DNA of 64,000 bases, taken from contig JANJGN010000021.1 of assembly GCA_026770705.1 (NCBI GenBank), forward strand, positions 107,756,001 through 107,820,000, written 5' to 3'. Positions 21,001-64,000 of this stretch are shown in pieces. Source of the DNA: Isurus oxyrinchus. Taxonomy: Eukaryota. Positions within the stretch are counted from its first letter, which is position 1, and every line of letters begins with the position of its first letter. A program made the position numbers.

Positions 21001-24000
21001 AAAGGAATCAAAGCCCTTGCTTGCCGTCCAAGAGAGTTGGAAGGACTGAGTCGTGATGTGAGAGACAGAAACGTCGCCAAGTTTACTTGGCTTCACAGTG
21101 TCTTTAACTGTGGAGGCTGAGAAAGAGAGAAAAAGGAGATGTTTTATTGGATAGCAAGGGTGATCCTAAGGCCAATGTGGCAGGCTCTGGATGGCTACCG
21201 AGTTCCAATCACAGCTCGCGTGTTGAAACAAACGTGGACAGGATCAGGAACTGACACCCAGCTCCTCAAAGAAACACTTGAAAGGAAGCGGCCAAAAGAG
21301 GCTTTGGGACAAACACAGGAACAGGAGCATGCCCAATCAGCACCGGGTCCTGCACAGCCACAGATGACAGCTGACCTCTGCCGAACTCTAACCCAATGAA
21401 AATGTCAATCTCAAATTGACCCGCCATTCCAGCGGAGAGAGTTCCAGGTTTCCATGACCCTTTGGGTAAAAAGATTTGTCCTGTTTCATTCCCGAAAGGC
21501 CTTGCTCACATTTTTAGCATGGCTCCTGGCTCTTGAATCCCCCACCAGTTTCTCTCCATCTATCCTATTAATCTGAACACGCCAATCTAATCTCAAGGGG
21601 TCAAGCCAACATGATCCAAACTTAAGCTGAAGGCAAAACACTGCAGATACTGGAAATCTGAAACAAAAACAAAAAATGCAGGAAAAACAAGTCCATAACA
21701 CGGACTCAAAACGCTGTCAGACCTGCTGAGTTTTCCCAGCATTTTCTATTTATGTTTCATGATCCAAACCTATCCTCATTGCTTACCCCACTAATTGCAG
21801 AAAAGCCCAGAACGTTAAAACAAAATTTGACAATCTGAAGTTGGCCTTCCGCTTTCCTTCTGGTCCTTCAACAGCAGAAAAGGACCTGGATTATCAACAC
21901 AGAGAAAATCGCATTCACTGGGATAAAAAGACAAGTTTCCTGTAGTTCAGAGCAGCAAGCGGATCACGTTTGAAAATCTCTGCTGGAACCCCTGGAGCAC
22001 AACCGGATTCTCCTGAGCACCTCCGATACCCCCTCCACTGAGTGCCCAGGGCTCGACTGCGAAAGACTCATACTGACGGATAGCCCTGTATCTATGGCAA
22101 CAGAGGGGTAAAATATTAAAAGTGATTCCTGATGGACCTGTGCAAGTTAAAAGGAGCACACAGACTGCTGAGTTTGGCCCTGACATGATTTCTTGATTAA
22201 TCTCCCTCATCTCATTGGTCTGCCAGAGAAAAAAATAAGGAAAAGATGTCCTTTTTCGAGGGGAAGAAGCAACAGAAATTCAAAGGTTTCAGTGGAGATA
22301 CCTGAGGTATTGGCGGAAGTGGTCAGTGGCCTAGTGCGTTGGCCACCAGATACCCCATAGAGATGGAGCCTATAGGCGGTGGTAGGCCTCAGGCCTGTGA
22401 TGACGGTGGATCGACGGTCACTGGTTACCGTGAGGGTTCTCACATCCTCAGAGTCCTCGAGCCCGTATTCGATGAGAAAGGAATCATAGGTCCTCTCTGT
22501 TTCCCAGGAGAGTTTGAGGGATTGGGCCGTGACCTTAGACACGGAGAAATTGTCCAGATCCGCCACTTCGATCGGCCTCTGACCCTCTTTATCTGTGGAG
22601 ACTACAATTTAAAATAAAAACAATTATCGTTAATCGGCCGTCTGGCCTGACCTGAGGAGAAAGATTGAGTGAGTTCTGGACAGGAAATTGAGGAAAAGCA
22701 AATCCCAATGAGGAGAGGAAGAGAGAGGAACACTCCTTAACTCATCTGAGATTCTCCCCTCTATCCCAGTGCGGAACTCACTCCAGCATTGACGGAGAAT
22801 TCAGCTGAGAAAAGATGCTCCGAAAGTCAATGGTGCTGCAGGGAATGCAAGATTTAACGAACCTCAAAAGAGGCTGAAGCAGACTCCAAGAGCAACAGCA
22901 ACTTGCATTTATCTAGCTATTCCAACTATTGTTAGAATAGTCAAATATCCCAATGGGCATCACTGGAGCATTTTCAGATGGAATTTAACAGGCAGATACA
23001 TAAAGAGATATCAGAACAGATAATGGAAAGCTTGGCCAAAGAGGTAGAATTTAACAGAGAACAGAGCTAGTTTGAGAGGTTGAAGAATATGGACATTATT
23101 AGTATGAATAGATCAGTTAGAGTCTAGGCACATTCTGAATCGCTTTAGTCTTTGTCACTGAACCAGAGAAACTGTGAAAGACTAACAGGAAACTTCGATA
23201 AACACAACCTAAATAAACCTGTAGGGAAACCATACACCAAAACACCGAGAATTCAATGTCCAGTCTGATTACTTGTAAATCTAAAAGGAGCTTCACTGGT
23301 TTTAGGTGTGTAACTGGGTTTAATAACACCCTGAGATCCAACCCAGCTCAGCCTGTCAGAAATATCCCGATGGGAAATTTTGCGGCTTTACACTGAAACA
23401 TAAGTTCTGTAGGGACCTCACACGTGAGAATCAGAACACAACTTCAACTAAGACACGGACAGTTCACAGGGAATAAACACATCTAGGTCCGAAACCTTCC
23501 TGAAGAAACTCAAGGCACAATGTATTAACAGGAAGGCAGGTTAGAGGATCAAAAAATGATAGATGACAGAGGGAGGACATTCTGCCCATGGTGCCTGTGC
23601 CGGATCTTTGAAAGATCAATCCAATTAGTCCTGCCACGGCAACACTTTCCCCATAACCGAGTTACTTTTTCCCCTTCAAGTATTTATCTGAGTCTCTTTA
23701 CACTTGTTATTGAACCATCTTCCACCATCTCCTCAGTGTTTGTCCAGATTGTTGTGTATTAAATGTTTCCTCATGTTGTTTCTGGTTATTTTGCCAATCC
23801 CCTTCAATCTGTGCCCTCTGGTTACCAACCTTCCTGCCACTGGAAAATGTTTGGAATCCCAGAGTCATGAACATTTACTTCACGGAGAAGGCCTTTTGGC
23901 CCATTATGTTCCTGCAAGGTTAGTTCACCACTGCTACTTCCCCATCCGTTTTTCTGTCGTTCTGCAAATTTGCTCTGCTCAGGTAATTATCCAATTCTCT

Positions 24001-63000: not shown

Positions 63001-64000
63001 GGAATACCGTACAGGATATAGTAAATATTTCACAGGATACCATGGGCCTTGGACAGGAAAATAGAAATACTGGACTGTGTACCGTAATATTGAACAGGAC
63101 TCTCAGGAACATTGGACACTGGGTAATATTAATAACATGATATCAATTTTATATTATAATATATTATGTTAGCCAGTGTAATGGGAAATTTTGAACTGGG
63201 CATCATGAATATTGTCCAGTAGACAAGAAATATTGGTCAGCGCACCAGAAATACTAAGGAATATTAAACTGGACAATGGGGAATACTGGACTGGACACTC
63301 GGGAATATTGGACTGGATTATGGGGAATATCAGAGTGGACTGGGAATATTGGACTGGGCATGGGAATATCAGAGTGGACAGTGGGGAACATTCGACTGCA
63401 GAATGGGAATATTGGACAGGACATTGAGTATATAGGACTGGACACAGGGAATATCGGACAGGACAGTGGGAATATAGGACTGGGCACTTGGAATATTGGA
63501 CTGGACAGTGCAGAAGATTGGAATAGACAGTGGGAATATTGGACTGGACACTCGGAATATTGGACTGGACAGTGGGAATATTGGACTGGATACTGGGGAA
63601 TATCAGAGTGGACAGTGGGGAATATTGTACTGGATACGGGAATATCAGAGTGGACAGCGGGGAACTTTCGACTGCACAGTGGGAATATTGGACAGGACAG
63701 TAGGAATATAGGACTGGACACTGGGAATATTGGACAGGACAGTGGCAATATTGGACTGGACAGTGCAGAACATTGGAATGGACAGTGGGAATATTGGACT
63801 GGACACTGAAATATTGCACTGAATGCTGTGCTGTGATGTCCTGTGGCCGAGATGATTGGTTTCTGTCATTCGGATCAAACAGATCCAACACCTTGTAAGT
63901 TGCAGTTAAAGGGACAAACAAAAAGTTTCTTGCCGATCTGTCACCTTCGAATCGCTTGGGGCTGGGAGACACCCTCACCCTGCCCCCAAGTGCCCACGAC

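What the first reader, a model, noticed from the sequence alone, without database searches (positions are those of the whole stretch)
21950..64000. Young, lineage-specific tandem array of a two-exon FN3 module inside a tenascin-X-like gene
Seen: at least 9 near-identical ~4.6-kb units, each with an A exon (300 bp) and a B exon (282/291 bp), all phase 1-1, with introns still alignable; the array continues past 64000. Known: tenascin-X and tenascin-W have expanded FN3 repeats independently in different lineages. Inference: because every exon is symmetric, unequal crossing-over or exon skipping can change the length of the protein arm without breaking frame. This would make the extracellular-matrix protein length-tunable, and copy number may vary between individuals.
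Basis: partly seen in the sequence, partly recalled or inferred. Interest (0 to 1): 0.75.

Follow-up and report, generated by a model that had tools for sequence, protein, structure and literature searches.

The report
Tandem FN3 exon array in tenascin gene
A matrix-protein gene of the tenascin family has multiplied a pair of domain-coding exons at least nine times, an ordinary way for these genes to grow that is already described in other animals.

Summary
The repeat is real. The minus strand carries nine units of 4.3-4.9 kb from 22,121 to the window end. Each unit has one A exon (300 bp) and one B exon (291 bp), and each exon encodes a whole FN3 domain.

The copies are not near-identical. 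Whole units are 84-91.5% alike, exons differ by about 5.5% and introns by 6-16%. One exon (B8) has a 4-bp frameshift and one (A3) has lost its GT donor, so 16 of 18 are intact. Fewer amino-acid changes than silent ones (omega about 0.4) show the exons have been kept as coding sequence.

Nearest relatives among units are not neighbours, which points to growth by multi-unit blocks. Seven older single-exon FN3 exons and two split FN3 domains follow downstream in a consistent frame.

The domains are tenascin-type: their best match is Tencon, which I recall to be a tenascin-C consensus. Which paralog this is (TNX or TNC) could not be settled, because the window holds no EGF repeats, fibrinogen domain or CYP21. 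The count of at least 27 FN3 domains favours TNX if the host is an elasmobranch.

Lineage-specific duplication of FN3 exons is already described for chicken tenascin-Y/TNX, TNW, human TNXB and lamprey TN50. Copy-number variation and exon skipping remain untested.

The parts
22121..64000 (-). Tandem array of nine full two-exon units plus the start of a tenth. In transcript order the exons run B9 A9 B8 A8 ... B1 A1.
   Evidence: Self-BLAST gives 84-91.5% identity at offsets that are multiples of about 4.6 kb. Periods are 4341-4901 bp.
22302..22601 (-). Exon A1, 300 bp, phase 1-1, one whole FN3 domain plus a linker of about 13 residues
   Evidence: Pfam fn3 9.4e-12; AF2 pLDDT 89 with seven strands; Foldseek match to Tencon, TM 0.82-0.86
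27028..27327 (-). Exon A2, 300 bp, phase 1-1
31479..31778 (-). Exon A3, 300 bp, open frame, but the donor is CT instead of GT
36380..36679 (-). Exon A4, 300 bp, phase 1-1
40721..41020 (-). Exon A5, 300 bp, phase 1-1
45350..45649 (-). Exon A6, 300 bp, phase 1-1
50080..50379 (-). Exon A7, 300 bp, phase 1-1
54515..54814 (-). Exon A8, 300 bp, phase 1-1
59353..59652 (-). Exon A9, 300 bp, phase 1-1
25022..25312 (-). Exon B1, 291 bp (282 with the inner acceptor), phase 1-1, one FN3 domain
   Evidence: Pfam fn3 1.3e-15
29503..29793 (-). Exon B2, 291 bp, phase 1-1
34232..34522 (-). Exon B3, open frame. The outer acceptor is GAA rather than AG, so only the inner acceptor (282 bp) is available.
39109..39399 (-). 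Exon B4, 291 bp, phase 1-1
43481..43771 (-). Exon B5, 291 bp, phase 1-1
48046..48336 (-). Exon B6, 291 bp, phase 1-1
52834..53124 (-). Exon B7, 291 bp, phase 1-1
57366..57652 (-). Exon B8, 287 bp, with a 4-bp deletion that shifts the frame into stops. It has no excess of substitutions, so the break is recent or an assembly error.
62071..62361 (-). Exon B9, 291 bp, phase 1-1
26158..26610 (.). A 22-bp minisatellite in the intron that follows each A exon. Its variable copy number accounts for much of the variation in unit length.
   Evidence: TRF. The other copies it lists are 30641-31044, 35366-35962, 44658-44919, 49194-49664, 53917-54066 and 63258-63821.
20826..21116 (-). E1, an older single-exon FN3, 291 bp, phase 1-1
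19166..19465 (-). E2, single-exon FN3, 300 bp, phase 1-1
16721..17002 (-). E3, single-exon FN3, 282 bp, phase 1-1
15289..15588 (-). E4, single-exon FN3, 300 bp, phase 1-1
12587..12886 (-). E5, single-exon FN3, 300 bp, phase 1-1
11562..11852 (-). E6, single-exon FN3, 291 bp, phase 1-1
10052..10342 (-). E7, single-exon FN3, 291 bp, phase 1-1
7557..7679 (-). E8a, first half of a split FN3, 123 bp, phase 1-1
   Evidence: Pfam fn3 profile positions 5-41; splice sites read
3530..3673 (-). E8b, second half of the same FN3, 144 bp, phase 1-1
   Evidence: Pfam fn3 profile positions 41-82
3232..3362 (-). E9a, first half of the last FN3 in the window, 131 bp, phase 1-0
   Evidence: Pfam fn3 profile positions 3-43
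1409..1541 (-). E9b, second half of that FN3, 133 bp, phase 0-1
   Evidence: Pfam fn3 profile positions 42-72

Best explanation
This is the middle and 3' part of the FN3 region of a tenascin-family gene on the minus strand, most probably tenascin-X.

A two-exon unit was multiplied in tandem to at least nine copies. The unit encodes two already diverged FN3 domains, B then A, about 48% identical. The likely mechanism is unequal crossing-over between units, partly in blocks of several units (inferred).

Each exon encodes one complete FN3 domain plus a short linker and is phase 1-1, so units can be gained, lost or skipped without changing the frame (shown). The copies have stayed under purifying selection, so they are or recently were translated (shown for the past, inferred for the present).

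The domains most probably act as rigid spacers that set the length of the protein arm rather than as diversified binding surfaces (inferred). Two of the 18 exons now look defective. If the assembly is right there, they must be skipped or they mark decay of surplus units.
For: - Array: offsets in multiples of about 4.6 kb at 84-91.5% identity; nine A and nine B exons with conserved AG/GT boundaries.
- Coding: exon p-distance is 5.5% against 10.6-12.2% in introns. Ka/Ks is 0.039/0.119 for A (36 pairs) and 0.040/0.096 for B (28 pairs, B8 dropped).
- Coding, counting distinct variants: 28 synonymous against 33 non-synonymous in A (omega 0.41, p 6e-4) and 23 against 27 in B (omega 0.43, p 2.5e-3).
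- One exon is one domain: all 9 single-exon FN3 exons tested (A1, B1, E1-E7) scored above the Pfam fn3 cut-off. The AF2 model of A1 has pLDDT 89 and seven strands. The top Foldseek match is Tencon, TM 0.82-0.86, rmsd 1.2 A.
- Tenascin type: Tencon E 3e-15 for A1, 2.4e-17 for B1 and 3.5e-16 for E7; tenascin-R, -C and -X chains are also hit. The Atlas's nearest clusters are 'Centyrin' and 'Tenascin (Fragment)' at 0.98.
- Block duplication: the intron trees group units {2,4,7} and {3,5,6,8}, and {1,3,6}, {2,4,7} and {5,8}, with 100% support. The closest pair is units 4 and 7 at 6.3%.
- No loop-targeted change: of the 33 non-synonymous variants in A, 7 fall in the 14-residue linker, 15 in the 51 strand residues and 11 in the 34 loop residues (my hand count).
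- TNX lean: the window holds 18 + 7 + 2 = 27 FN3 domains and the array runs on. Published elasmobranch counts are TNC 16, TNR 9 and TNX 27 in whale shark, and TNX 33 in small-spotted catshark (PMC11401434, passages read).
Against: - No EGF repeat, fibrinogen-related domain, heptad region or CYP21 neighbour lies in the window, so tenascin membership rests on the FN3 domains alone.
- PDB searches give no consistent paralog signal. For A1, TNX 2cui scores 8.5e-8 against TNC 1qr4 at 1.2e-6. For E7, TNR 1tdq scores 7e-14, ahead of TNC and TNX. For B1, TNX is not among the 60 rows shown. For the half-exons the results are mixed.
No call tested it.
- B8 is frameshifted and A3 lacks a donor, so part of the array may no longer be expressed.
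- An omega of about 0.4 is only moderate constraint.
- No RNA evidence was available.
Confidence: 0.75

Rival explanations
1. The gene is tenascin-C, not tenascin-X. On this reading the array is an expansion of the single-exon, alternatively spliced FN3 block that sits ahead of the split, constant C-terminal FN3 domains.
For: - The layout matches what I recall of TNC: a run of single-exon FN3 exons followed by FN3 domains split over two exons.
- The best PDB match is Tencon, which I recall (no call confirms it) to be a consensus of tenascin-C FN3 domains.
- TNC 1qr4 is hit at 1e-6 to 2e-8.
Against: - A consensus sequence scores high against any tenascin-type FN3.
- Whale shark TNC has 16 FN3 domains against at least 27 here (PMC11401434, passages).
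- No IDG/IEG motif, reported for the last FN3 of cartilaginous-fish TNC, is seen in E9 (translations). It is not known that E9 is the last FN3.
Confidence: 0.2
2. The array is real DNA but most A and B exons are no longer spliced into mRNA. On this reading it is a decaying surplus of pseudo-exons inside a long intron.
For: - B8 has a 4-bp frameshift and A3 has lost its GT donor.
- None of the 24 intact donors of single-exon FN3 exons has G at +5, which by general knowledge makes for weak donors.
- Omega is about 0.4, not strongly constrained.
Against: - Sixteen of 18 exons keep an open frame and both splice signals after 6-16% neutral divergence.
- Non-synonymous change is significantly depleted.
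- Exons diverge half as fast as introns.
- B8 shows no excess of substitutions, so its break is recent.
Confidence: 0.1
3. The gene is another FN3-rich extracellular protein, not a tenascin. Candidates are an R3-type receptor tyrosine phosphatase, a FACIT collagen or fibronectin.
For: - Pfam Fn3_Dep-1_3rd scores near its cut-off for several exons; E7 scores 29.3 against a cut-off of 26.
- Fibronectin chains rank first or near the top for B1, E7 and the half-exons.
Against: - The fibronectin scores are sums over several domains.
- Single-domain identity is highest to Tencon, about 40% over 87 columns.
- The Atlas's nearest named clusters are Centyrin and Tenascin.
- No vWA, FN1/FN2, collagen or phosphatase ORF was seen among the 179 ORFs, which I read by eye and did not scan with Pfam.
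Confidence: 0.06
4. The array is an assembly artefact, a false expansion of one or two units.
For: Tandem repeats of this size are hard to assemble. No read data were available to check.
Against: - Units differ from one another by 6-16% in introns and have unit-specific indels and minisatellite lengths.
- An artefact would give identical copies.
- The units form well-supported subfamilies.
Confidence: 0.02

Closest known systems
Chicken tenascin-Y, later reassigned to tenascin-X (Hagios et al. 1996, PMC2120995, abstract only; reassignment in PMC1578592, abstract)
   Same: It has a run of FNIII domains 70-100% identical at the DNA level inside a TNX-type gene. Protein variants arise by alternative splicing of those domains.
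   Different: The copies here are 91-97% identical between same-type exons and alternate between two types. No Ser/Pro-rich insert is seen in the window. Splicing is untested here.
Tenascin-W (TNN), third FN3 domain (Tucker et al. 2006, PMC1578592; PMC7884750; passages read)
   Same: Repeated, lineage-specific duplication of an FN3 domain carried on a single exon explains the size differences between species.
   Different: There a single exon is the unit; here the unit is a pair of exons. Cartilaginous fishes are reported to lack TNW.
Elasmobranch tenascin-X gene predictions (Adams and Tucker 2024, PMC11401434, passages read)
   Same: They have large FN3 counts: 27 in whale shark and 33 in small-spotted catshark. 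The window holds at least 27.
   Different: The paper gives domain counts only. The passages I read say nothing about a two-exon tandem unit. Its supplementary table of chondrichthyan tenascins could not be opened.
Human TNXB (Miller 2021, PMC7829301, passages read)
   Same: [quoted passage not shown]
   Different: Whether the human repeats form a regular two-exon array with alignable introns was not checked here.
Sea lamprey tenascin TN50 (PMC11401434, passages read)
   Same: It is an extreme FN3 expansion, 131 domains, many identical in sequence.
   Different: It is far larger, and its copies carry an ELVIS motif that is absent here (translations).
Bacterial 'periscope' proteins (PMC8201768, search-listing abstract only)
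   Same: Variable numbers of near-identical tandem domains set how far a protein reaches.
   Different: They are unrelated proteins in bacteria with no introns. The comparison is by analogy only.

Membership tests
Fibronectin type III domain (Pfam PF00041) | Sequence match above the curated cut-off (25 bits) | tested here: met
   All 9 single-exon FN3 exons tested (A1, B1, E1-E7) score 32.9-57.7 bits. The half-domain exons score 22.7, 21.3, 30.2 and 16.8 bits over complementary halves of the profile.
Fibronectin type III domain (Pfam PF00041) | Seven-strand beta sandwich fold | tested here: met
   The AF2 model of A1 has pLDDT 89 and seven strands. Foldseek matches Tencon at TM 0.82-0.86 and 1ten at 0.80-0.88.
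Tenascin family | A series of tenascin-type FN3 domains | tested here: met
   Tencon scores 3e-15 to 2.4e-17; tenascin-R, -C and -X chains are hit; an Atlas cluster is named 'Tenascin (Fragment)'. That Tencon is a tenascin-C consensus is my recollection.
Tenascin family | C-terminal fibrinogen-related domain | not testable with these tools
   It would lie beyond base 1 of the window. No such ORF was seen below 1409 (read by eye), and ORF 252-542 has no Pfam hit.
Tenascin family | N-terminal heptad repeats and tenascin-type EGF-like repeats | not testable with these tools
   They would lie beyond base 64,000.
Tenascin-X paralog | Placement of the fibrinogen-related domain in the TNX clade | not testable with these tools
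   The domain is not in the window, and no eukaryotic protein collection was open.
Tenascin-X paralog | Adjacent to a CYP21-type gene | not testable with these tools
   The 3' end of the gene is outside the window.
Tenascin-X paralog | FN3 domains closest to TNX rather than TNC or TNR | tested here: inconclusive
   TNX 2cui is the best natural tenascin chain for A1 (8.5e-8). For E7 it ranks behind TNR and TNC, and for B1 it is absent from the 60 rows shown. TNX 2cum is hit by three of four half-exons at 5e-4 to 1e-2, while TNR scores 4.9e-7 for E9a.
Tenascin-X paralog | Large FN3 number (27-33 in elasmobranch TNX against 16 in TNC and 9 in TNR) | tested here: met
   There are 27 FN3 domains in the window and the array runs on. 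The published counts are from PMC11401434. This holds only if the host is an elasmobranch, which was not tested.
Symmetric (phase 1-1) cassette-type domain exons | Length a multiple of three with the same phase at both ends | tested here: met
   Twenty-four of 25 single-exon FN3 exons meet this. B8 is 287 bp.

The most novel reading that the evidence does not exclude
The pair of exons, not the single exon, is the unit of growth because it keeps neighbouring domains dissimilar. Adjacent A and B domains are 45-49% identical, while same-type domains two places apart are 92-94% identical. Such an array could grow, shrink and be alternatively spliced, giving individuals and tissues tenascin arms of different length, without the inter-domain misfolding that near-identical neighbours are thought to risk (PMC4660218, search-listing abstract only). 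The frameshifted B8 would then show that skipping is already tolerated.
Probability: 0.2. Interest if true: 0.45.

Novelty: new member of a known kind. Interest (0 to 1): 0.25.

Why it matters
It gives a clean, datable example of how a tenascin gene lengthens: by tandem duplication of a two-domain exon pair, in blocks, with purifying selection acting on each copy. If copy number varies between individuals, or the exons are skipped in some tissues, the locus would be a natural system for asking how arm length affects matrix mechanics. The principle itself is already in print for TNW, chicken TNX and lamprey TN50, and the gene is probably already present in public annotation as a predicted tenascin.

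Tried and rejected
- Paralog assignment by PDB sequence search, exon by exon (7 searches). No consistent ranking of TNX, TNC and TNR emerged.
- ESM Atlas on exon E7. It returned only generic tenascin and Centyrin FN3 clusters, with no paralog information.
- Rfam on the whole window. No family matched.
- Pfam on the repeated intronic ORF, the Pro-rich ORF at 3856-4272 and three other ORFs. None reached its family's curated cut-off.
- Search for an older two-exon periodicity among E1-E7. Only exon-level DNA similarity of 65-80% was found and the introns no longer align, so this is not shown.
- Loop-targeted diversification. Non-synonymous variants are spread roughly in proportion to linker, strand and loop length, so this was rejected.
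- Exon-specific homogenisation by gene conversion. Ks in the exons (0.10-0.12) is about equal to intron divergence, so there is no sign of it.
- Provenance of Tencon. The papers found say only that Centyrins derive from a consensus of 14 FN3 domains. The tenascin-C origin remains my recollection.
- Full text of Bristow 1993 and Hagios 1996. Only the abstracts and reference lists are held, so the human and chicken exon layouts could not be read.
- The bacterial/archaeal, phage, plasmid and E. coli collections were not searched, because they cannot hold a vertebrate gene.
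Full report
**What is there**

The window has no N. Self-BLAST shows a tandem array on 22,121-64,000, with hits at offsets that are multiples of about 4.6 kb and 83.7-91.5% identity over 1-4.8 kb.

The coding strand is the minus strand. Stop-to-stop ORFs there translate to FN3-like peptides all along the window. Alignment of the ORFs with their flanks and a pattern scan give nine A exons and nine B exons. In transcript order they run B9 A9 B8 ... B1 A1.
- All nine A exons are 300 bp.
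- Eight B exons are 291 bp.
- All of these start after an AG with two bases completing a codon and end one base into a codon before a GT, which is phase 1-1.
- A second in-frame AG lies 9 nt inside every exon.
- A-to-A periods are 4341-4901 bp.
- A 22-bp minisatellite of variable length sits in the intron after each A exon.
- Homology to other units runs to 63,996-64,000, so a tenth unit has begun. By the spacing in other units, its A exon should lie roughly 250 bp past the window end.

**Where the observation overstates**

The units are not near-identical.
- Exon p-distance averages 5.5% for A (range 4.0-7.0%) and 5.4% for B (3.1-8.6%; eight copies, B8 left out).
- The two introns average 10.6% and 12.2%, with a range of 6.3-15.7%.
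- B8 has a 4-bp deletion, is 287 bp long and reads into stops.
- A3 has CT in place of the donor GT.
- B3 lacks the outer AG.
- B8 carries no more substitutions than its sisters: 8 differences from the consensus, 2 of them private. Its break is therefore recent or an assembly error.

**Are the exons real coding sequence?**

Yes, at least until recently.
- Pairwise Ka/Ks is 0.039/0.119 for A (36 pairs) and 0.040/0.096 for B (28 pairs). Ks is about equal to the intron divergence.
- Counting each distinct variant once gives 28 synonymous against 33 non-synonymous in A (omega 0.41, binomial p 6e-4). In B it gives 23 against 27 (omega 0.43, p 2.5e-3).
- All nine single-exon FN3 exons tested pass the Pfam fn3 cut-off.
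- An AlphaFold2 model of exon A1 was built on an alignment of 24 single-exon peptides from this window. It has pLDDT 89, seven strands and a disordered linker of about 13 residues at the N-terminus.
- Foldseek places the model on Tencon at TM 0.82-0.86 and rmsd 1.2 A, and on other FN3 structures.
- By my hand count, the 33 non-synonymous variants of A fall 7 in the linker, 15 in strands and 11 in loops. That is roughly in proportion to length, so there is no sign of loop diversification.

**History of the array**

- A and B are 45-49% identical to each other. Each is 35-56% identical to the seven single-exon FN3 exons downstream, E1-E7. The A clade and the B clade have 100% and 98% bootstrap support. 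The duplicated unit was therefore an already diverged pair.
- Intron trees put non-adjacent units together: {2,4,7} and {3,5,6,8} for the B-to-A intron, and {1,3,6}, {2,4,7} and {5,8} for the A-to-B intron. All of these groups have 100% support. Units 1 and 9 are the most divergent.
- The best BLAST identities, 91.5%, are at offsets of three and five units. This fits growth by multi-unit blocks through unequal crossing-over, which is an inference.
- The closest pair (units 4 and 7) differs by 6.3%. If the neutral rate is near 1e-9 per site per year per lineage (an assumed figure, not tested), the last duplication would be about 30 million years old and the oldest twice that or more. If rates are slower, as I recall them to be in sharks, the array would be older still. 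'Young' is therefore not supported.
- E1-E7 share only exon-level DNA similarity of 65-80% with each other and with A and B, and their introns no longer align. The array is the latest layer of a process that built the whole FN3 region.

**The rest of the gene in the window**

- After A1 come E1-E7, each 282-300 bp and phase 1-1.
- Two FN3 domains split over two exons each follow: E8a/E8b (phases 1-1 and 1-1) and E9a/E9b (phases 1-0 and 0-1). Each pair matches complementary halves of the Pfam profile.
- The phases are consistent from B9 to E9b apart from B8.
- All protein searches were made exon by exon.

**Which gene?**

- The best single-domain PDB match is Tencon: 3e-15 for A1, 2.4e-17 for B1 and 3.5e-16 for E7, including the shared FDSFLIQY stretch. 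I recall Tencon to be a tenascin-C consensus, but no call confirms this.
- Natural tenascin-R, -C and -X chains are all hit, without a consistent order.
- The Atlas's nearest clusters are 'Centyrin' and 'Tenascin (Fragment)'.
- The window contains no EGF repeats, fibrinogen-related domain or neighbouring gene. Tenascin membership is therefore likely but incompletely tested, and the paralog is open.
- The one argument for TNX is domain number. The window holds 27 FN3 domains and the array runs on. Published counts are 16 (TNC), 9 (TNR) and 27 (TNX) in whale shark, and 33 in small-spotted catshark TNX (PMC11401434, passages read).
- I do not take the contig for human. Identity to the human tenascin-X chain 2cui is 33%, and to the engineered Tencon/Centyrin chains 35-43%.

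**What is already known**

- TNW size differences come from lineage-specific duplication of a single-exon FN3 (PMC1578592 and PMC7884750, passages read).
- TNX has the most variable domain organisation, with 4 to 33 FN3 domains (PMC11401434, passages read).
- Human TNXB has 32 Fn-III repeats from 'evolutionarily duplicated exons', some alternatively spliced (PMC7829301, passages read).
- Chicken tenascin-Y, later reassigned to TNX, has FNIII domains 70-100% identical at the DNA level, with variants made by alternative splicing (PMC2120995, abstract only).
- Lamprey TN50 has 131 FN3 domains, many identical (PMC11401434, passages read).
- Three searches for a description of a two-exon tandem unit in a cartilaginous-fish tenascin found none, and the passages of PMC11401434 that I read mention none. 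The library is partial, and that paper's supplementary tables could not be opened.

**Left unchecked**

- For that reason orthology, synteny, presence of the array in other species, copy-number variation and transcription are all untested.

**Verdict**

This is a real, well-preserved but not young tandem array of a two-exon FN3 unit in a tenascin-type gene, probably TNX. It is a new example of a known way these genes grow.

Noticed in passing
All 25 single-exon FN3 exons, for example 22593-22601, 25304-25312 and 21108-21116: A conserved 9-nt motif YYTCCAYAG at the 5' edge gives two in-frame acceptor AGs 9 nt apart. The outer AG is missing in B3 and E3, and in E7 the two are 18 nt apart. The motif is kept across exons that are only about 45% identical in protein. 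In A2 and A7 its changes are C-to-T changes that alter the residues but keep the pyrimidines and the AG. This suggests a splice signal, and possibly alternative inclusion of 3 residues in the linker.
   Followed up: partly
Donor sites of A, B and E1-E7 exons: None of the 24 intact donors has G at +5. All read GTA followed mostly by pyrimidines. By general knowledge these are weak donors of the kind common at skipped exons. The split-FN3 donor at 3529 is GTGAGT.
   Followed up: no
24091-24399, 33197-33559, 42551-42982, 56435-56866, 61144-61623 (minus strand): Units 1, 3, 5, 8 and 9 show a same-strand ORF in the B-to-A intron with a shared peptide stretch. One search listed one further such ORF, in unit 2, in another frame. 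The copy tested (42551-42982) has no Pfam family. It looks to me like an old retroelement fragment that was copied along with the unit.
   Followed up: partly
5782-5937, 8568-8763, 9313-9479: Tandem arrays with a 33-bp or 66-bp period and the same unit occur in both orientations in introns of the split FN3 region. They are probably a dispersed satellite or SINE-like repeat.
   Followed up: no
14356-14656 and 18300-18727: Two 25-bp minisatellites with similar units lie in the E4-E5 and E2-E3 introns. They might be a trace of an older two-exon duplication (E2 and E4 are 53% identical). One search, run with BLAST's low-complexity filter on, reported no match between those introns.
   Followed up: partly
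13367-14024, 10602-10908, 57836-58277: Other tandem repeats are present: a 37-bp unit in 18 copies, a 69-bp unit in 4.5 copies, and a 241-bp local duplication inside unit 8's A-to-B intron.
   Followed up: no
3856-4272 (minus strand): A proline-rich ORF of 138 aa lies inside the intron that splits FN3 E8. It has no Pfam hit. Proline-rich inserts between FN3 domains are reported for some TNX proteins (PMC11401434), but this ORF lies within a domain's intron and is probably non-coding.
   Followed up: partly
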